From contig JBCLLY010000001.1 of the NCBI GenBank assembly GCA_039738415.1, positions 1 to 51,620 on the forward strand: DNA of 51,620 bases, given 5' to 3'. The position numbers and the translations under genes were made by a program. The DNA comes from Candidatus Levyibacteriota bacterium. GTDB taxonomy: Bacteria; Patescibacteriota; Microgenomatia; Levybacterales; GWA1-39-11. Position 1 is the first letter of the stretch. Every line of letters starts with the position of its first letter. Of the stretch, positions 13,799-51,380 are shown piece by piece. The notes under the pieces were generated by a model, which was given only the letters and a program-made list of their open reading frames with translations, was not told the DNA's origin and made no database searches.

Positions 13799-14757
13799 TG
13801 ATGAAACAAAATATTATTTTTTTTGGTAGCGGGAGTTACACAATTCCTATTGTTAAAAAACTCCTAGCTCACAATTTGCTCCTTGTCGTAACTACAGAAA
13901 AAGTTGGGGAATTAGTAAAATTATGCGAGTTAGAACGGATAAAATATATTTGCACAAACTTAAAGGACGAAAATGACATAAAACTTATACAAGAGTCCAA
14001 GCCAACGCTTGCAATCCTGGCAAGTTACGGCGCAGTAATTCCGGAAAAGATTATCAAATCAATAAAAAACGGAATTATCAATATCCACCCTTCTCTTCTT
14101 CCCAAATATAAGGGACCCTCTCCTATTCAGTACACTTTGTTAAATTCCGATACTCAGACAGGAGTCACTTTGATAAAATTGGATAACGAAATTGATCATG
14201 GGAATATCCTTTCTCAAACAAATTACAAGTTAAAAGGAGACGAGACCACAAAAGACTTACTCGATATTTTATTTTTACAAGGTGCTGAAATGGTTGAAGA
14301 CTTAATTATCAAACTTGAAAACGGAGAAAATTTAATCGAAACCCCGCAGAATCATTCTCGGGAATCCTGGAGTTATAAAATTGAAAAAAAGGATGGGGAA
14401 ATAAATATGTCCAGTATACTGGACACTGGAAAATTAAAAAATATGATACGGGCTTATTATCCCTGGCCCGGAGTTTGGCTCCGCTATTCCTTACCCGTCA
14501 TTGCAAACCCAAGTAATGTCATTGCGATCCCGACTAGTCGGGAGAAGCAATCCAAACCCCAACGTCATCCTGAACCTGCTCGCCTCGCTGAGTCGAAGCG
14601 GGTTTCAGGATCTTCAAAACTTACAAATAAAATAATCAAACTCCTACCACAAGACCTCATACAGGTTGAAGGAAAAAACCCGATAAACTATAATGATTTT
14701 ATAAATGGTTTTGGAAATGAAGGAAAAGAATTGCTACAGAAGTTACAATTAATATGA
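13798..14757 (+). CDS. fmt: methionyl-tRNA formyltransferase carrying an in-frame GC-rich insertion
   Basis: HPSLLPKYKGPSPIQ and YYPWPGVW motifs. An extra roughly 40 aa (VIANPSNVIAIPTSREKQSKPQRHPEPARLAESKRVSGSS) follows the PWPG motif. Confidence 0.9.
   Translation: MMKQNIIFFGSGSYTIPIVKKLLAHNLLLVVTTEKVGELVKLCELERIKYICTNLKDENDIKLIQESKPTLAILASYGAVIPEKIIKSIKNGIINIHPSLLPKYKGPSPIQYTLLNSDTQTGVTLIKLDNEIDHGNILSQTNYKLKGDETTKDLLDILFLQGAEMVEDLIIKLENGENLIETPQNHSRESWSYKIEKKDGEINMSSILDTGKLKNMIRAYYPWPGVWLRYSLPVIANPSNVIAIPTSREKQSKPQRHPEPARLAESKRVSGSSKLTNKIIKLLPQDLIQVEGKNPINYNDFINGFGNEGKELLQKLQLI
14497..14612. repeat. GC-rich palindromic element inside fmt
   Basis: GTCATTGCGATCCCGACTAGTCGGGAGAAGCAATC and GTCATCCTGAAC...GAGTCGAAGCG...GTTTCAGGATC. 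It has the same building blocks as the elements at 17895, 26090 and 47908. Confidence 0.7.
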
Positions 14758-17894: not shown

Positions 17895-17995
17895 GTGTCA
17901 TTCCGGACTTGATCCGGAATCTATATCTGTATCCCGCATCCCATTCGGCAGGCTCAGGGCCTGAGCGAAGTCGAACGGCAAGTTCGGGATGACAA
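17895..17995. repeat. GC-rich palindromic element in the rplJ leader
   Basis: GTCATTCCGGACTTGATCCGGAATC ... GCTCAGGGCCTGAGC GAAGTCGAACGGCAAG TTCGGGATGAC. The ends are inverted (GTCATTCCGGA / TTCGGGATGAC). Confidence 0.75.
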
Positions 17996-26003: not shown

Positions 26004-26225
26004 AGTTATCTTTTGTTTTTCTTACACAAGAATAGAAATGTCCGCTTTTATCTCTGTATGCACCTTAACTATATGTGTTCATTTCTTTTGTCATTCTGGC
26101 CCGCTTCGACTCGCTCGAATCGAGGCGAGCTTGTCCAGAATCAGATCCTGGATGCGTTCGTTCCTCGCTTACCAGGATGACGAATAGGACATTTCTATTC
26201 TTGTATGACAGTTATCTTTTGTTTT
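26004..26225. mobile_element. MITE-like element: 16-nt direct repeats, 18-nt perfect terminal inverted repeats, GC-rich palindromic core
   Basis: Direct repeat AGTTATCTTTTGTTTT at 26004-26019 and 26210-26225. Inverted repeat ACAAGAATAGAAATGTCC (26026-26043) / GGACATTTCTATTCTTGT (26187-26204). Core 26090-26181 runs GTCATTCTGGCC...CCAGGATGAC. Confidence 0.65.
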
Positions 26226-33960: not shown

Positions 33961-35820
33961 CTACTTTTTCTCAAAATACTCAGTTAATATTTCTTTTACT
34001 ATTGGTGCGGCAACTTGAGAACCTTCTCCTCCATGCTCGACGATTATCGTTACGGAAATTTCAGGATTATGATATGGCGCAAATACCGTGAACCAAGCGT
34101 GCGGTTTTCCTCCATCAAATGTTTCAGATGTCCCTGTTTTACACCCGACAGAAATATTTATTGAACTCCCTTTATTCCCTGAAGCACTATTACTGGCATA
34201 CCCTTGCGAAAAATCCAAATCATCAATTTTCAAATTATTATTTCTGACAGTAAAGTTAAAAAACGGATATCCTGTGCCTCCAGTTTGACACGCTTCCAGC
34301 ATTCCCTGCTTTACCAGTTTTAAATTCTCTGGTTTTATAAAGTTTTCCCTTATAACTTTCTTGTTATTAGATACTATGTGCGGTCTATATAATATTCCAC
34401 CGCTGGCAACTACATTTGTCATTGCGTTTGCCTGAAGTGGAGTTACCTGTAAAAACCCCTGCCCTATACTCATATTGTATGTATCTCCCAAATACCAATC
34501 CTCGCTTATAACCCTTGCCTTCCATGATGGTCCGGGGACAATTCCCGCTATCTCTCCGGGGATATCGATTCCAATAATTTTCCCAAATCCGAATTTCCCC
34601 GCCCACTCGGAAAGATTTTTGGCGCCAATTCTCTCAGATGCTACATAAAAGAAAATGTCATTCGAACGCCTCAATGCCCCCACAACATTCAGAGGCTTCT
34701 CAAGCCTTCCGTATTGAAGAAAATTCCACGTGCCAAATGAAATCCCTCCTATAGTTCTTACCCCCGTATCCTCAATTTTTGTATTTGGTTCTATAGCACC
34801 TTCCTCAAGTCCCGCTGTTGCTGTAACCAATTTAAAAGTCGAGCCGGGCGGATAAGCACCGGCAATTGACCTATTTAAAAGTGGCTCTTTTTTATCATTT
34901 AATACTTCTTCAATGCTTTGATATCCTCCATCAGGTTCGTAACTTTTGCCGGCCTGCCCTGAGCTCTTGTCCTGAGCAGAGTCGAAGGATGTTGAACGGG
35001 CCTGCCCTGAGCCTGTCGAACGGGTAAATAAATTTGGATCAAACGAAGGCTTTGACAGCATTGCTAATATTGCACCATCACGTGGATCTGAAACAACTAC
35101 CGCACCGGACTGCACATCCTCCATCGCATTAAAAACAGATTTTTGGATATCTAAATCCAAAGTCGTGGTAATATTTTTCCCGGGAGTTGAAAAATCCTCC
35201 CCAAGCGTTCTTACATAATTCCCCAGAGCATCAACTTCGATAAGCTGTCTTCCATTTTCTCCATGTAAAAGCCTTTCATATTCCTCCTCAATTCCCATTC
35301 TTCCCGTAAAATCAGAGTATCCATAATCACCATACTCGGGACGTAATACTTCATCTTCACTTAATTGCCCTACATATCCAAGTACGTGCGCGAAAATTTC
35401 CTTATATAAATATTCTCTCTGAGGAATACTAAGTACCAAATCCTTATTATTTTCCATTTTTGATAAAGCCTCATCGTGGGACATCCATTCTATCTTCTCG
35501 TCCTTTATAATTCCAAATGTCGGCGTGTTGCGTACCAAAGCCTCTCCATTTCTATCAAAAATTATTCCTCTGGGCGCAGGGATTAATGTGGTTCTTATTC
35601 TATTTTCATTTGAAAGCCTGTCATAATATTCACCGCGAACGACTTGAAGCGTAAAAAGTCGCAATACAAAAATCACAAAAACAACTCCCAAAAACATTAG
35701 AGGAAGTCTTCTCATAATGTCAAAATTATTATCTCCGTCGTTTCTTTGCTGAGAAAAATATTTTTTTGCTAGAAATACATGTTCGGAAAAAGCATATCCG
35801 ATGTCGTTCTTTTTTTTCAT
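33961..35820 (-). CDS. mrdA: penicillin-binding protein 2 (elongation transpeptidase) with an in-frame GC-rich insertion
   Basis: PPGSTFK (SxxK), RSNDIFF (SxN) and KTGTS (KTG) motifs. Insertion GSGQARSTSFDSAQDKSSGQAGKS. Confidence 0.9.
   Translation of the reverse strand: MKKKNDIGYAFSEHVFLAKKYFSQQRNDGDNNFDIMRRLPLMFLGVVFVIFVLRLFTLQVVRGEYYDRLSNENRIRTTLIPAPRGIIFDRNGEALVRNTPTFGIIKDEKIEWMSHDEALSKMENNKDLVLSIPQREYLYKEIFAHVLGYVGQLSEDEVLRPEYGDYGYSDFTGRMGIEEEYERLLHGENGRQLIEVDALGNYVRTLGEDFSTPGKNITTTLDLDIQKSVFNAMEDVQSGAVVVSDPRDGAILAMLSKPSFDPNLFTRSTGSGQARSTSFDSAQDKSSGQAGKSYEPDGGYQSIEEVLNDKKEPLLNRSIAGAYPPGSTFKLVTATAGLEEGAIEPNTKIEDTGVRTIGGISFGTWNFLQYGRLEKPLNVVGALRRSNDIFFYVASERIGAKNLSEWAGKFGFGKIIGIDIPGEIAGIVPGPSWKARVISEDWYLGDTYNMSIGQGFLQVTPLQANAMTNVVASGGILYRPHIVSNNKKVIRENFIKPENLKLVKQGMLEACQTGGTGYPFFNFTVRNNNLKIDDLDFSQGYASNSASGNKGSSINISVGCKTGTSETFDGGKPHAWFTVFAPYHNPEISVTIIVEHGGEGSQVAAPIVKEILTEYFEKK
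34945..35026. repeat. GC-rich element inside mrdA
   Basis: GGCCTGCCCTGAGC occurs twice (34951-34964 and 34999-35012), together with GAGTCGAAGG and TGTCGAACGG blocks shared with the other elements. Confidence 0.65.
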
Positions 35821-41712: not shown

Positions 41713-42381
41713 ATGGAGGGAATTTTTGCAGTGAATAAACCTGTGGGAATTACGTCACATGATGTAATTTACAGCTTGCGCAGAAAAACCGGTATAAGAA
41801 GAATTGGTCACGCAGGAACTTTAGACCCACTCGCTTCCGGCGTACTGGTGGTTGCTATCGGGCGGGAATTTACGAAGCAACTTGACTCAATAGTTAAAAG
41901 TGAAAAGGAGTATATCGCGGAGATTTTCTTGGGCGCAAATTCTACAACTGATGATATGGAGGGCGTCCTTCGTCCCGCTTCGCCAAAGCTACAGCGAGGC
42001 GAGCAAACTCAGGATAAAAATGTACCAAATCCAACTTTAAAAGAAGTTCGAACGGCACTCAACCAATTTATCGGTAAAATCATGCAAACTCCCCCTGCCT
42101 ATAGCGCAATAAAGGTAAAAGGACAGGTTGCCTACAAAGCCGCACGTCAAGGACGGTCCTTGCCATTGGTTCCCCGCGAGGTTGAGGTAAAGGAAATTGA
42201 AATACTTGAATATAAATATCCTATTGTAAAACTAAAAATAACTTGCGGTAAAGGTGTTTATATACGCAGTATCGCACGCGATTTAGGTGAAAAACTAAAA
42301 ACCGGAGGCTATCTAAAAAGCCTAGTTAGAACCAGAGTTGGGGAATATACTATCGAAGAAGCGGTGCTTCTCAATGACTAA
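41713..42381 (+). CDS. truB: tRNA pseudouridine-55 synthase TruB (short form) with a GC-rich in-frame insertion
   Basis: GHAGTLDPLASGVL and QTPPAYSAIKV motifs. Inserted LRPASPKLQRGEQTQDK. Confidence 0.9.
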   Translation: MEGIFAVNKPVGITSHDVIYSLRRKTGIRRIGHAGTLDPLASGVLVVAIGREFTKQLDSIVKSEKEYIAEIFLGANSTTDDMEGVLRPASPKLQRGEQTQDKNVPNPTLKEVRTALNQFIGKIMQTPPAYSAIKVKGQVAYKAARQGRSLPLVPREVEVKEIEILEYKYPIVKLKITCGKGVYIRSIARDLGEKLKTGGYLKSLVRTRVGEYTIEEAVLLND

Positions 42382-46624: not shown

Positions 46625-47017
46625 CGTTTGGAGATTTTTCTTGAGTGCAAATGCGCGCTCAAAGAGAAGTCCCAGAACATATTCGAGACGGAGGTAATCG
46701 TGGCCCGCAAGGGCAAATTTAGACAAAGGTAAACCGTAGTTCGTCAGGGAGTCTTTCGGGATTCCCGCCAAGCTTTAGGAGAGCAGATGCCGGATAGTCA
46801 GCTTGAACTAGCAACTTCTGGTCGCCTCACGGCGAAGGAGAGGGTCGAAGCAGATCCCAATAGCCAAGTGCGTATGCGTATGATACGCAAAGCACAAGAA
46901 CTACGTCATCAACCCGTAAAGCAGCCAGAGAGCGAGTAGTTCTCACCACCGTCTCACGACCGGAAGGTTACCTCGTCTTAACGAGGGTTTTGTAGGTTCC
47001 AAACCTTCACCTTCCGG
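46625..47017 (+). ncRNA. rnpB: large structured RNA, RNase P RNA-like (tentative)
   Basis: A 470-nt non-coding, GC-richer gap. In order it contains AGAGAAGTCCC (CR-I-like, 46664), GGAGGTAATCG plus a GGCCC-GCAA-GGGC hairpin, AGACAAAGGTAAACCG, a cUUCGg-capped hairpin, CCAAGCTTTAGGAGAG, AGATCCCAATAGCC and CACAAGAAC (CR-V-like, 46894). A long-range helix joins 46685-46694 and 46946-46955. A three-way junction spans 46960-47017. I could not draw a convincing P4. Confidence 0.45.
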
Positions 47018-47594: not shown

Positions 47595-49430
47595 CTACAT
47601 CCTCGCAACAGTCTCTATTCCTAGTAAATTCAAGCCATTTTTAACGGTCTGACCCGTAGCCTTCGTTAATTCCAAACGGAAATTTTCATTTTCAGATCCG
47701 ATAATTTTATGCTTTTGGTAAAAAAGATTAAATTTTTGAGATAACTCAAACAAATAATTACATATTACACTTGTCGCAAATTCAATGCTTGCCTTCTCCA
47801 CGAAATATGGATAATAACTAAGAAATCTCAAGAGTTCATCCTCTTCAGCTTGTAGTCTGTAGTTTGTAGTCTGTAGTTCACTTGAATTTGTTTCAATATC
47901 ATCATTTGTCATTCTGGCTTGCCCAGAATCGATTCTGGCGTCCTTCTCCGTGCTTTGCTCTGAGTCGTCCCCAGAATGACGGACAAAAGCCTTCTCCAGA
48001 ACGCTCTGCGTTCTGACATAAGTGTACTGAATATAAGGCCCGGAGTTGCCTTGCATGTTCAAAATGTCCTCCCAATCAAAAACAATATCCTGCACCGAAC
48101 CTCTTTTTAAGTCGTTCCATTTTAATGCCCCAATTCCAATTGCCGTAGAATCTACGTCGTGATTTTTTTCTTTAACCAAACCTTCTGCGCGTTTTTCCGC
48201 CTCATCCAAAACATCTTCAAGCCAAACAGTATTTCCGCGTCGAGTCGACATTTTTCCTTCCTTAAATCTGTAAAGTCCGTGTTTTATATGAATTCTCTGT
48301 CCATCCTTCACCCATCCGAGCATTTTTTCCGTTTCAAAAAGCTGGTAAAAATATAATGACTGCTCTGCTCCGACTTCATTAATAATGGTAATATCCGGGC
48401 CATATTTATCAAGACGAAACTTATCCGTTGCCAAATCACGAGTGGCGTAAAGAGTAGTACCGTCGCTTTTTACAATCATAAGCGGAGGATATTTATCACC
48501 TGGAAAATAGACAAGCTCTGCTCCTTCATGTTTTTTAAGAAGTCCTTTTGTTCTCAGTTCTTCAATTACAGGCTCCATTTTGTCTTCAAAGTACGATTCG
48601 CCGTAACCCTTACCGTCATTTTCTGTGAAAACAATATTTAATTTTTGATATATTTTTTCAAACTCCTTTAAAGACCAATCTGTGCACTTTTGCCAGAGCC
48701 TTTTTGCTTCAGGGTCGCCGTCTTCCAATTTTTTAAACCATGCGCGAGCTGCGTCTTCAAGCTTCGGGTCTTTTTCTGCTTCCTCATGGAATTTAACATA
48801 AAGGGCAACCAAATTTTTTACAGGATTGTCAGTCTTTTCAATATCCTCTTCATTTCCCCACGCTTTTATGGCAAAGATTTGTTTACCAAACTGCGTACCC
48901 CAGTCCCCCAAATGGTTATCTTTATATACTTCCCAACCGGTTGCCATTAATAGGTTTGCAACCGCATTACCTATAATTGTTGAGCGTAAATGTCCAACAG
49001 TGAAAGGCTTAGCAATATTTGGAGATGAGAATTCAACCACAGCTTTTTTTCCTTTATTCATATTAGACTTTCCAAAGTTTTCTTTCTCGCGCAAAATAAA
49101 ATTTAAATTTTCAAAAAGATATTTTTCCGAAACCCAAAAATTCACAAATCCGGGTGCAACAGCCTCGACTTTTGAAATATATTCGTCGGGGGAAAATTTT
49201 GAGACAATACTTTCTGCCACATCCATTGGACTTCCCAGACCTAAGTCATAAGCAGAGCTTTTCTGCGAATAAGTCTTAAGCCTTAAGTCTTTAGACATGC
49301 GCATCGCGACATTTGTATAGTAGTCACTGTGCTCGAGGTTGTCTGAAATTTTTATTTCAGGCGAAATTTCAAACTTTAAGTCAGACAAATTCTCCCGAAG
49401 CTTTTTTGCAATATGTTTTTTGATATCCAT
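47595..49430 (-). CDS. argS: arginyl-tRNA synthetase with in-frame repeat insertions
   Basis: SSPNIAKPFTVGHLRS (HIGH region), the class I fold order, and a DALR-type C-terminal domain. Confidence 0.92.
   Translation of the reverse strand: MDIKKHIAKKLRENLSDLKFEISPEIKISDNLEHSDYYTNVAMRMSKDLRLKTYSQKSSAYDLGLGSPMDVAESIVSKFSPDEYISKVEAVAPGFVNFWVSEKYLFENLNFILREKENFGKSNMNKGKKAVVEFSSPNIAKPFTVGHLRSTIIGNAVANLLMATGWEVYKDNHLGDWGTQFGKQIFAIKAWGNEEDIEKTDNPVKNLVALYVKFHEEAEKDPKLEDAARAWFKKLEDGDPEAKRLWQKCTDWSLKEFEKIYQKLNIVFTENDGKGYGESYFEDKMEPVIEELRTKGLLKKHEGAELVYFPGDKYPPLMIVKSDGTTLYATRDLATDKFRLDKYGPDITIINEVGAEQSLYFYQLFETEKMLGWVKDGQRIHIKHGLYRFKEGKMSTRRGNTVWLEDVLDEAEKRAEGLVKEKNHDVDSTAIGIGALKWNDLKRGSVQDIVFDWEDILNMQGNSGPYIQYTYVRTQSVLEKAFVRHSGDDSEQSTEKDARIDSGQARMTNDDIETNSSELQTTNYRLQAEEDELLRFLSYYPYFVEKASIEFATSVICNYLFELSQKFNLFYQKHKIIGSENENFRLELTKATGQTVKNGLNLLGIETVARM
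47851..47878. repeat. 14-nt tandem repeat x2 (TGTAGTCTGTAGTT) inside argS
   Basis: Read directly from the sequence. Encodes LQTTNYRLQ. Confidence 0.9.
47908..47970. repeat. 63-nt GC-rich element with perfect 10-bp terminal inverted repeats inside argS
   Basis: GTCATTCTGG...CCAGAATGAC. Its length is a multiple of 3, and it sits in the linker before the anticodon-binding domain. Confidence 0.85.
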
Positions 49431-51231: not shown

Positions 51232-51380
51232 ATAAACCCTCCGAATTAATACTATCTATAAAAACAGCTCGCCCGCCAGTAATTGCTCCGTGAGCCGTGT
51301 ATGAATAATACTTTAAGGCGAACGGGAAAATGCGGCGGGAACCAGCAGCGGGAATTACAGCTTTACGGATTTTAGTCATA
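51192..51380. repeat. 41-nt exact direct repeat (51192-51232 and 51340-51380) bracketing a 107-nt insert
   Basis: Each repeat is the galU start (1 nt upstream of the ATG plus the first 40 nt of the CDS). Compared base by base; offset 148. Confidence 0.95.
51271..51339 (+). ncRNA. unassigned conserved hairpin motif, copy 2
   Basis: GCCCGCCAGTAATTGCTCCGTGAGCCGTGTATGAATAATACTTTAAGGCGAACGGGAAAATGCGGCGGG; same fold as 2867-2938. Confidence 0.45.

What the first reader, a model, noticed from the sequence alone, without database searches (positions are those of the whole stretch)
47908..47970. A 63-nt GC-rich element with perfect 10-bp terminal inverted repeats sits in frame inside argS
GTCATTCTGG...CCAGAATGAC spans exactly 63 nt (21 codons). 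It lies inside the essential argS gene, in the linker before the anticodon-binding domain, and it does not break the frame. Next to it is a 14-nt x2 tandem repeat (47851-47878). The same element vocabulary (GTCATTC[CT]GG ends, GAGTCGAAG/GTCGAACGG cores) recurs in fmt, mrdA, truB, the rplJ leader and an intergenic MITE. Palindromic miniature elements that repeatedly land in essential ORFs and stay in frame suggest one of three things: strong filtering for in-frame, loop-tolerated insertions; removal at the RNA level; or co-option as surface loops.
Basis: partly seen in the sequence, partly recalled or inferred. Interest (0 to 1): 0.62.

Follow-up and report, generated by a model that had tools for sequence, protein, structure and literature searches.

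The report
Ssn-type hairpin pair translated inside argS
The flagged element is a 73-base pair of DNA hairpins of a repeat family published in 2025 (the recognition sites of small Ssn nucleases); it landed in a floppy surface loop of an essential enzyme in a tiny-genome bacterium and is simply translated as about 25 extra amino acids.

Summary
The inverted repeat is real, but it spans 47908-47980. That is 73 nt, not 63, and not a whole number of codons. On the argS coding (minus) strand it reads GTCAT-hairpin A-ATC/GAT-hairpin B-ATGAC.

This is a gene-less copy of a 381-bp cassette elsewhere in the genome (C3:31078-31458), where the same two hairpins bracket a 95-aa GIY-YIG nuclease gene. That architecture, and a near-canonical NTS unit in this genome, match the Ssn nuclease / SRM hairpin system of Chenal et al. 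2025 (PMC11893778).

The element lies in a variable loop of the ArgRS anticodon-binding domain that the model predicts to be disordered. Close relatives lack it, but other lineages carry independent hairpin inserts in the same loop.

Removing the exact 73 nt would shift the frame, so RNA-level excision of the repeat-bounded unit is unlikely. The element is read through. About 8 of 28 element loci lie in bona fide genes, although about 86% of the genome is coding. In-frame survival therefore looks like selection, not a special mechanism.

This is a new member of a known kind, behaving like Rickettsia palindromic elements. This scan had already noted the same cassette and in-frame miniatures in many other Patescibacteria genomes.

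The parts
47908..47980 (-). Whole element, 73 nt. On the coding (minus) strand it reads GTCATTCTGG-[32 nt]-CCAGAATC GATTCTGG-GCAAG-CCAGAATGAC and encodes RHSGDDSEQSTEKDARIDSGQARMT (ArgRS residues 483-507).
47931..47980 (-). Hairpin A, 50 nt: an SRM-type unit in 'GTCAT-first' orientation on the minus strand, with a 7-bp stem ATTCTGG/CCAGAAT and a 32-nt GC-rich loop. It is the closest relative of the hairpin just upstream of the genome's ssn-like gene.
   Evidence: 41 of 44 shared positions match; two 3-nt indels
47908..47930 (+). Hairpin B, 23 nt: a minimal SRM-type unit GTCATTCTGG CTTGC CCAGAATC, in 'GTCAT-first' orientation on the plus strand. It is the short form of the hairpin downstream of the ssn-like gene.
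47595..49430 (-). argS (arginyl-tRNA synthetase, 611 aa), the host gene. Its frame is continuous through the element.
47850..47878 (.). Exact 14-nt x2 tandem repeat (also 7-nt x3.9) in the same variable loop, 29 nt from the element. It is not part of the element.
   Evidence: similar 7/14-nt repeats in relatives
14564..14612 (+). Sibling unit inside fmt: GTCATCCTGAA...TTCAGGATC with an expanded loop.
17897..17993 (+). Sibling two-hairpin element in the rplJ leader (GTCATTCCGG...CGGGATGAC). It lies upstream of the L10 start, so it is not translated as part of L10.
26090..26181 (+). Sibling two-hairpin element, 92 nt, intergenic.

Best explanation
The element is a head-to-head pair of SRM-type hairpins. 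SRM (Ssn-related motif) hairpins have the form GTCAT + covarying stem + loop + stem + ATC and are the ssDNA recognition sites of small single-domain GIY-YIG 'Ssn' nucleases.

The pair is the gene-less, MITE-like version of the hairpin-ssn-hairpin cassette present once in this genome (C3:31078-31458). It was inserted into the loop between the first two helices of the ArgRS anticodon-binding domain after this lineage split from its sampled relatives. It is transcribed and translated with the rest of argS, adding about 25 hydrophilic residues that the model predicts to be disordered.

It persists because this loop tolerates length variation. Copies that landed out of frame, or in constrained parts of genes, were lost.

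Shown here: the anatomy, family membership by architecture, the gene-bearing sibling, absence from close orthologues, recurrence at the same loop, and the open frame.

Inferred: the cognate nuclease nicks single-stranded DNA just 5' of each GTCAT (top strand at one end, bottom strand at the other), and this underlies spread without target-site duplication.
For: (1) Anatomy. There are two local hairpins. As ssDNA the coding strand folds at -13.6 kcal/mol, z = -3.9.

(2) Family. The pattern GTCATYCYGR..YCRGRATC hits 43 times in this 0.8-Mb genome and 0 times for the reversed control. In 31 minimal units from this and related genomes the 8-bp stem is 100% paired, with 35 double (compensatory) changes, reached by 0 of 500 shuffles.

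(3) Gene-bearing sibling. C3:31078-31458 has GTCAT-hairpin A, a 95-aa GIY-YIG ORF (PF01541, E = 1e-10), and hairpin B-ATGAC. Hairpin A of argS matches that cassette's hairpin A at 41 of 44 shared positions and differs by two 3-nt indels.

(4) The cassette is conserved. 69 of 151 genomes of the order have a GIY-YIG match at E <= 1e-8; this cut-off also admits a weaker GIY-YIG subfamily, and the fetched loci had E <= 3e-20. In the 29 homologous loci fetched, about 26 have a GTCAT hairpin just upstream of the start and about 22 a hairpin-ATGAC at the stop. The stem sequences differ from locus to locus.

(5) Published match. Chenal et al. 2025 (PMC11893778) describe NTS = CGTCATTCCCGCGMAVGCGGGAATCYRG, the NTS-ssnA-NTS architecture, and ssDNA-only cleavage upstream of the hairpin. 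This genome holds AGTCATTCCCGCGAAAGCGGGAATCTAT at C1:92081.

(6) Insertion. 29 relatives' ArgRS lack it. The gap falls after VRTQSVLxK. The loop is 97 aa here against a median of 67 in 114 homologues.

(7) Tolerated site. Model pLDDT is 48-55 for residues about 491-520, against 88 overall. Independent GTCAT...ATGAC inserts occur in the same loop in G029 (57 nt) and G024 (56 nt). About 12 further homologues carry SRM-type peptides there.

(8) Lineage-specific expansion. The two same-genus genomes have 0 hairpin hits and no ssn homologue.

(9) Selection filter. About 8 of 28 element loci lie in bona fide genes, against 86% crude coding density.
Against: - The two argS hairpins do not match the paper's strict degenerate search string. 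Only 2 true units in the genome do.
- Assignment of the nuclease to CDD cd10448 could not be tested. NCBIfam gave nothing, and the nearest PDB hit is a weak UPF0213 match.
- No orthologue closer than 66% identity exists in the databases searched. The empty site, and hence the exact inserted bases, cannot be defined.
- No target-site duplication is seen.
- Mobility of Ssn cassettes is only a hypothesis in the literature.
Confidence: 0.8

Rival explanations
1. The hairpin pair is kept inside argS because it works at the DNA level as an Ssn cleavage site, for example limiting recombination or transformation of this gene, as NTS-gene-NTS does in Neisseria. The extra peptide would be a by-product.
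For: Chenal et al. show that NTS/SsnA modulates transformation in N. meningitidis. In this genome two hairpin elements in inverted orientation also bracket a 3.3-kb pair of surface-protein genes (C1:102852-106200).
Against: Orthologues lack the site. Inserts at this loop differ in sequence and position between lineages, which looks like tolerance rather than a conserved function. The paper reports that NTS are rare inside genes (2%).
Confidence: 0.1
2. The hairpins are REP-like elements mobilised by a RAYT / IS200-type Y1 transposase, not by the GIY-YIG nuclease.
For: The genome encodes two PF01797 (Y1_Tnp) proteins. One of them (C1:95770-96426) has a two-hairpin GTCAT element about 105 nt downstream.
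Against: Neither Y1 gene is bracketed by GTCAT hairpins. The C4 copy is flanked by a different repeat (CTTGGCAAGGACCGTCCTTGAC). The GIY-YIG gene is bracketed by them in about 26 of 29 loci across the order.
Confidence: 0.07
3. The insert has been co-opted as a functional surface loop of ArgRS.
For: An in-frame hairpin insert in the ychF-like gene (EIASSSSTPRNDE) is shared by this genome and G007, so such inserts can persist through speciation. The translated frame gives a hydrophilic peptide.
Against: The peptide is not conserved in any orthologue. It has low model confidence and no predicted secondary structure. Hairpin pairing is still intact, which suggests the DNA repeat has been kept or is recent, rather than reshaped for a protein role.
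Confidence: 0.05
4. The element is removed from the message or skipped by the ribosome (intron-like excision or translational bypass).
For: It is strongly structured and GC-rich in an AT-rich gene. Bypass elements of this size are known in yeast mitochondria (my own knowledge, not tested here).
Against: The ORF is open through it, and both flanks are in the same frame with it included. Deleting the 73 nt puts the DALR domain out of frame and gives an early TGA (read directly from the sequence). Other in-gene copies are 62, 63, 92 and 93 nt. No Rfam family matches.
Confidence: 0.03

Closest known systems
Ssn nucleases with NTS/SRM hairpin repeats (SsnA of Neisseria meningitidis; Chenal et al., Nat Commun 2025, PMC11893778)
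   Same: - Oriented hairpin repeat with a conserved GTCAT 5' flank and ATC 3' flank.
- Many copies per genome.
- A roughly 94-aa single-domain GIY-YIG gene bracketed by inverted hairpins.
- A near-canonical NTS is present in this genome.
   Different: - The host is a Patescibacteria (Microgenomates-type) genome.
- Stems are mostly TCTGG or CCTGAA rather than TCCCGCG, and loops are often expanded to 20-35 nt.
- The argS hairpins fail the published search string.
- The pair sits in frame inside an essential gene, whereas the paper reports NTS as rare in genes (2%).
- No biochemical data exist for this nuclease.
Rickettsia palindromic elements (RPE; Ogata et al. 2000, 2002, as summarised in PMC10969869)
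   Same: Palindromic selfish DNA inserted in frame in unrelated housekeeping genes of a reduced genome, translated, and apparently compatible with protein fold.
   Different: RPEs are about 100-150 bp and belong to their own sequence families. No sequence relationship was tested here. No nuclease partner is described for RPEs in the review I read.
MITEs, such as Correia elements of Neisseria
   Same: Short terminal inverted repeats, no coding capacity, many copies, and a gene-bearing sibling with the same ends.
   Different: No target-site duplication was found at 10 copies. The partner gene is a GIY-YIG nuclease, not a DDE transposase.
REP/BIME elements with RAYT (IS200/IS605-like Y1 transposases)
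   Same: Hairpin repeats recognised as ssDNA, paired inverted units, no target duplication. The Ssn authors draw the same analogy.
   Different: REPs are extragenic by definition. The associated enzyme here is GIY-YIG. The Y1 genes of this genome are not bracketed by these hairpins.

Membership tests
SRM / NTS hairpin repeats of the Ssn system | Oriented unit: conserved GTCAT 5' flank, palindromic stem, short ATC 3' flank, forming a hairpin | tested here: met
   Both argS hairpins have GTCAT + 7-bp stem + ATC. In 31 units the stem is 100% paired with compensatory changes.
SRM / NTS hairpin repeats of the Ssn system | Match to the published degenerate search string HGTCWYN(0-2)YYVSBRHN(0-5)WNVSBRGN(0-2)RNCYNB | tested here: not met
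   The regex hits 4 sites in the genome (2 true units, C1:92081 and C1:110427) and neither argS hairpin. The string was built from 29 genomes and allows only short loops.
SRM / NTS hairpin repeats of the Ssn system | Many copies per genome, far above chance | tested here: met
   43 pattern hits against 0 for the reversed control. The terminal 10-mers occur 21 and 17 times against 2.4 and 1.4 in shuffles.
SRM / NTS hairpin repeats of the Ssn system | Hairpins flank a small single-domain GIY-YIG (ssn) gene on both sides | tested here: met
   C3:31078-31458 in this genome. About 26 upstream and about 22 downstream hairpins in 29 homologous loci.
Ssn nuclease family (CDD cd10448) | The protein is assigned to cd10448 / groups with N. 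meningitidis SsnA | not testable with these tools
   No CDD search and no SsnA sequence were available. Pfam gives only PF01541, NCBIfam gives nothing, and the best PDB match is UPF0213 at E = 3e-4. Size (95 aa) and single-domain layout fit.
Ssn nuclease family (CDD cd10448) | Cuts only single-stranded DNA, upstream of its cognate hairpin, on one strand | not testable with these tools
   Biochemical assay needed.
MITE | Terminal inverted repeats and a gene-bearing relative with the same ends | tested here: met
MITE | Target-site duplication flanking each copy | tested here: not met
   No direct repeat flanks any of 10 two-hairpin copies. Only the gene-bearing cassette has AAT on both sides, which may be chance.
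Rickettsia palindromic elements | Sequence membership in an RPE family | not tested
   No Rickettsia sequences were compared. The resemblance is in behaviour only.
Self-removing insert (intron, intein, bypass element) | Removal restores the host frame, or known catalytic motifs are present | tested here: not met
   73 nt is not a multiple of 3. Excising it shifts the frame (read directly from the sequence). No Rfam match. A 25-aa peptide is far too short for an intein.
REP with RAYT | Repeats bracket a Y1 transposase gene | tested here: not met
   The two PF01797 genes are not bracketed by GTCAT hairpins.

The most novel reading that the evidence does not exclude
Hairpin-ssn-hairpin cassettes are autonomous mobile elements that move through single-stranded DNA using a GIY-YIG nuclease instead of a transposase. 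Their gene-less hairpin pairs would then be a major, recurrent source of new surface loops in essential proteins of ultra-small (CPR) bacteria. This would be the same process that produced the protein-coding palindromes of Rickettsia, a genus the Ssn paper lists as SRM-rich.
Probability: 0.3. Interest if true: 0.65.

Novelty: new member of a known kind. Interest (0 to 1): 0.35.

Why it matters
It assigns an unexplained GC-rich palindrome in an essential gene to a system characterised biochemically in 2025. It also shows that Ssn-type hairpin pairs are not only intergenic: in Patescibacteria they are repeatedly fixed and translated in tolerant loops of aminoacyl-tRNA synthetases and a GTPase.

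This matters in three ways. For annotation, such inserts inflate protein lengths and create spurious ORFs. For the open question of whether Ssn cassettes are mobile, it supplies relevant cases. For protein evolution in reduced genomes, it offers a parallel to Rickettsia palindromic elements.

It is not a new kind of element.

Tried and rejected
- Rfam scan of 47700-48200 at E <= 10: only noise.
- Published SRM regex: it misses the argS hairpins.
- Target-site duplications: none found.
- Empty-site allele: the closest ArgRS in 5.8 billion proteins is 66% identical over residues 300-611, so exact insertion boundaries cannot be set.
- The adjacent 14-nt duplication as the frameshift that compensates for 73 nt (73 + 14 = 87): rejected. 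The stretch between them (IETNSSEL) is homologous in the present frame to G007's FETNSNEL, and G007 has its own 14-nt repeat there.
- Strand bias explained by stop codons: rejected. Sense and antisense frames are about equally open. All 5 two-hairpin in-gene copies are in the A-to-B sense orientation, but n is too small to conclude anything.
- The ~70-nt hairpins at 2867-2938 and 51271-51339 noted earlier on this window: a different family.
- Seven other small GIY-YIG genes of this genome: tRNA-associated and not flanked by GTCAT hairpins.
- NCBIfam and PDB naming of the nuclease: uninformative.
- Intrinsic terminator or promoter in the element: none.

Full report
**Observation**

The window region 47700-48200 holds a perfect 10-bp inverted repeat, GTCATTCTGG at 47908-47917 and CCAGAATGAC at 47971-47980 (pair I2). 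The element therefore spans 47908-47980, which is 73 nt.

The stretch is 55% G+C, in contigs of 33-41%. It lies in a continuous 611-aa ORF on the minus strand (47595-49430) with the three ArgRS Pfam domains. An exact 14-nt x2 repeat lies at 47850-47878.

A single 10-bp inverted repeat at this spacing is expected a few times by chance in 51 kb. The case rests on the family.

**Anatomy**

On the coding strand the element reads c|GTCATTCTGG ggacgactcagagcaaagcacggagaaggacg CCAGAATC GATTCTGG gcaag CCAGAATGAC|a. It encodes RHSGDDSEQSTEKDARIDSGQARMT, starting at the second base of a codon.

It is two adjacent hairpins: A with a long loop and B with a 5-nt loop. Each carries GTCAT at its outer end, one on each strand. 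As ssDNA the coding strand folds into the two local hairpins at -13.6 kcal/mol, z = -3.9.

**Family**

- 'GTCAT + hairpin' units are common in this 797-kb, 19-contig genome: 64 exact-stem units against 10.8 in shuffles, 43 of them GC-rich.
- The terminal 10-mers occur 21 and 17 times against 2.4 and 1.4 expected.
- The pattern GTCATYCYGRN{3,50}YCRGRATC hits 43 times against 0 for its reversed control.
- Stems differ between units (TCTGG, CCTGAA, TCCGGA, CCCGCA, GCTGAA...) but always pair. In 31 minimal 25-nt units from this genome and relatives, all 248 cells pair, 35 carry changes on both sides, and 0 of 500 shuffles reach this. I took the 25-nt units I read from the list. A few listed units with one mismatch or wobble were not included.

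**Gene-bearing sibling**

At C3:31078-31458 the same ends enclose a 95-aa ORF with a GIY-YIG domain (PF01541, E = 1e-10). Hairpin A ends 4 nt before the ATG, and hairpin B overlaps the TGA.

Hairpin A of argS is the closest relative of this cassette's hairpin A: 41 of 44 shared positions match, with two 3-nt indels. Hairpin B is the short form of the cassette's hairpin B. The argS element is thus the cassette without its gene.

Across 151 genomes of the order, 69 have a GIY-YIG match at E <= 1e-8. That cut-off also admits a weaker, tRNA-associated GIY-YIG subfamily; the 29 loci fetched were the best matches (E <= 3e-20). In those 29 loci about 26 show a GTCAT hairpin just upstream of the start and about 22 a hairpin-ATGAC at the stop, with stems that differ from locus to locus. 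The seven other small GIY-YIG genes of this genome are tRNA-associated and lack these hairpins.

**What is known**

Notes from this scan pointed to Chenal et al. 2025, which I read.
- SsnA of N. meningitidis is a 94-aa single-domain GIY-YIG nuclease (cd10448).
- It binds the hairpin repeat NTS (CGTCATTCCCGCGMAVGCGGGAATCYRG) only as ssDNA, on one strand, and cuts upstream of it.
- Homologues in many phyla are flanked by 'SRM' hairpins.
- The NTS-ssnA-NTS layout is likened to an insertion sequence, but mobility is not shown.
- NTS are said to be rare inside genes (2%).

This genome holds AGTCATTCCCGCGAAAGCGGGAATCTAT at C1:92081. The paper's strict search string finds only that unit and one other, not the argS hairpins. 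The CDD assignment could not be tested. I therefore file the element under this system by architecture and gene association, with one defining test (the published regex) not met.

**The insertion in ArgRS**

Searches of 40 relatives' genomes break the ArgRS match at residue about 481 and resume at about 513-526. In an alignment of 30 orthologues the extra residues follow VRTQSVLxK, and the closest relatives lack them.

E. coli ArgRS (4oby) aligns to residues 60-483 and 548-611. Pfam places the site inside DALR_1.

An AlphaFold2 model built on 78 sequences (mean pLDDT 88) has helices 464-487 and 528-537 with an unstructured 488-527. Mean pLDDT is 48-55 for residues about 491-520.

Among 114 homologues the loop has a median of 67 residues; here it has 97.

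Independent GTCAT...ATGAC pairs occupy the same loop in G029 (57 nt, VILRTKPEGSQILRFAQND) and G024 (56 nt, RHSERSEESQEILRFTQDD). About a dozen further homologues show SRM-type peptides there, for example VILGSAATPES..DSGQARMT, IDSGQARMT and HPELVSGS..LVQHD. Positions differ by a few codons, so this looks like a tolerated site rather than a precise target.

**Other genes**

- LeuRS (C1:119158-122400) carries at least five hairpin-derived stretches.
- A ychF-like gene carries two.
- fmt carries at least one.
- A 1797-aa surface protein carries two.
- In the ychF-like gene the 93-nt insert is absent from four relatives. G007 has a different hairpin insert at the same loop, and a second insert (EIASSSSTPRNDE) is shared with G007, so in-frame copies can persist through speciation.

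**Frame**

The repeat-bounded lengths of in-gene copies are 73, 63, 62, 92 and 93 nt here, and 57 and 56 nt in relatives. There is no intrinsic multiple-of-three rule.

Deleting the exact 73 nt from argS puts the downstream DALR domain out of frame, with an early TGA (read directly from the sequence). This argues against RNA-level excision of the repeat-bounded unit.

With a crude ORF map, 86% of the genome is coding, yet only about 8 of 28 element loci lie in bona fide genes. In-frame copies therefore look like survivors of selection. The two 3-nt indels in hairpin A fit evolution under a coding constraint.

No target-site duplications were seen.

**Distribution**

The two same-genus genomes have no hairpin hits and no ssn homologue. 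Genomes with many hairpins (G007, G009, G012, G036, G038) have ssn homologues.

**Rivals**

- Two Y1-transposase genes exist, but GTCAT hairpins do not bracket them.
- No Rfam family, terminator or promoter explains the site.
- Co-option is not supported, because the peptide is unconserved and of low model confidence.

**Verdict**

It belongs, by architecture and gene association, to the Ssn/SRM hairpin system published in 2025. Here it is a gene-less hairpin pair translated within a tolerant loop of an essential enzyme.

The behaviour parallels Rickettsia palindromic elements (review PMC10969869). I found no paper linking the two, and no later paper on Ssn hairpins inside genes.

The same cassette and in-frame miniatures had already been noted many times by this scan in other Patescibacteria genomes, and the gene-bearing cassette of this very genome had been noted too.

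Noticed in passing
window 47850-47878, and the same ArgRS loop in loci L021, L025, L026, L027, L035, L036, L040, L043: The ArgRS loop holds short tandem repeats with a period of 7 or 14 nt in many unrelated lineages: AATTCAG x4 in L040, 14 nt x2.7 in L036, and 14 nt x2 both here and in G007 but with different sequences. A heptamer period in coding DNA, recurring at one site across genomes, is odd and unexplained.
   Followed up: partly
window 47997-48015: An 8-bp palindrome CAGAACGC-tct-GCGTTCTG lies within the conserved VRTQSVL codons, about 20 nt from the insertion. Several relatives keep the GC-rich codon choice ACGCAGAGCGT in AT-rich genes. This could be a conserved DNA or RNA hairpin next to the insertion hot spot.
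   Followed up: no
G000 C1:102852-106200 (locus L001): Two two-hairpin GTCAT elements in inverted orientation bracket a 3.3-kb pair of putative surface-protein genes (518 and 326 aa), and a paralogue of the first gene follows. This recalls the NTS-gene-NTS layout around surface genes in Neisseria.
   Followed up: partly
G000 C1:106088-106151: Three tandem half-units (GTCATCCTGAA + 8-10 nt) precede one complete hairpin, as if the 5' half had been reiterated.
   Followed up: no
G000 C1:119158-122400: LeuRS (1081 aa) carries at least five hairpin-derived in-frame stretches, including GTCATTGCGA-type ones (VIASVARQSN...GLARND, VIATRQLAGKQS, VIAIRQLAEKQS...GLARNDE).
   Followed up: partly
G000 C4:7113-7799 and C1:95770-96426: Two Y1 (IS200/RAYT-like) transposase genes. 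The C4 copy is flanked on both sides by a different repeat, CTTGGCAAGGACCGTCCTTGAC, which may be its own REP-like partner.
   Followed up: partly
window 34945-35030 and 41956-42015: GC-rich in-frame blocks that the first-stage notes place in mrdA and truB (I did not check the gene identities). They share loop 'vocabulary' (GAGTCGAAG, GCCTGCCCTGAGC, CGAGGCGAG) with the expanded hairpin loops but lack GTCAT/ATGAC ends. They may be decayed copies.
   Followed up: partly
window 46650-47000: A GC-rich (50-57%) non-coding stretch downstream of argS, flagged by another note as RNase P RNA-like. I did not examine it.
   Followed up: no
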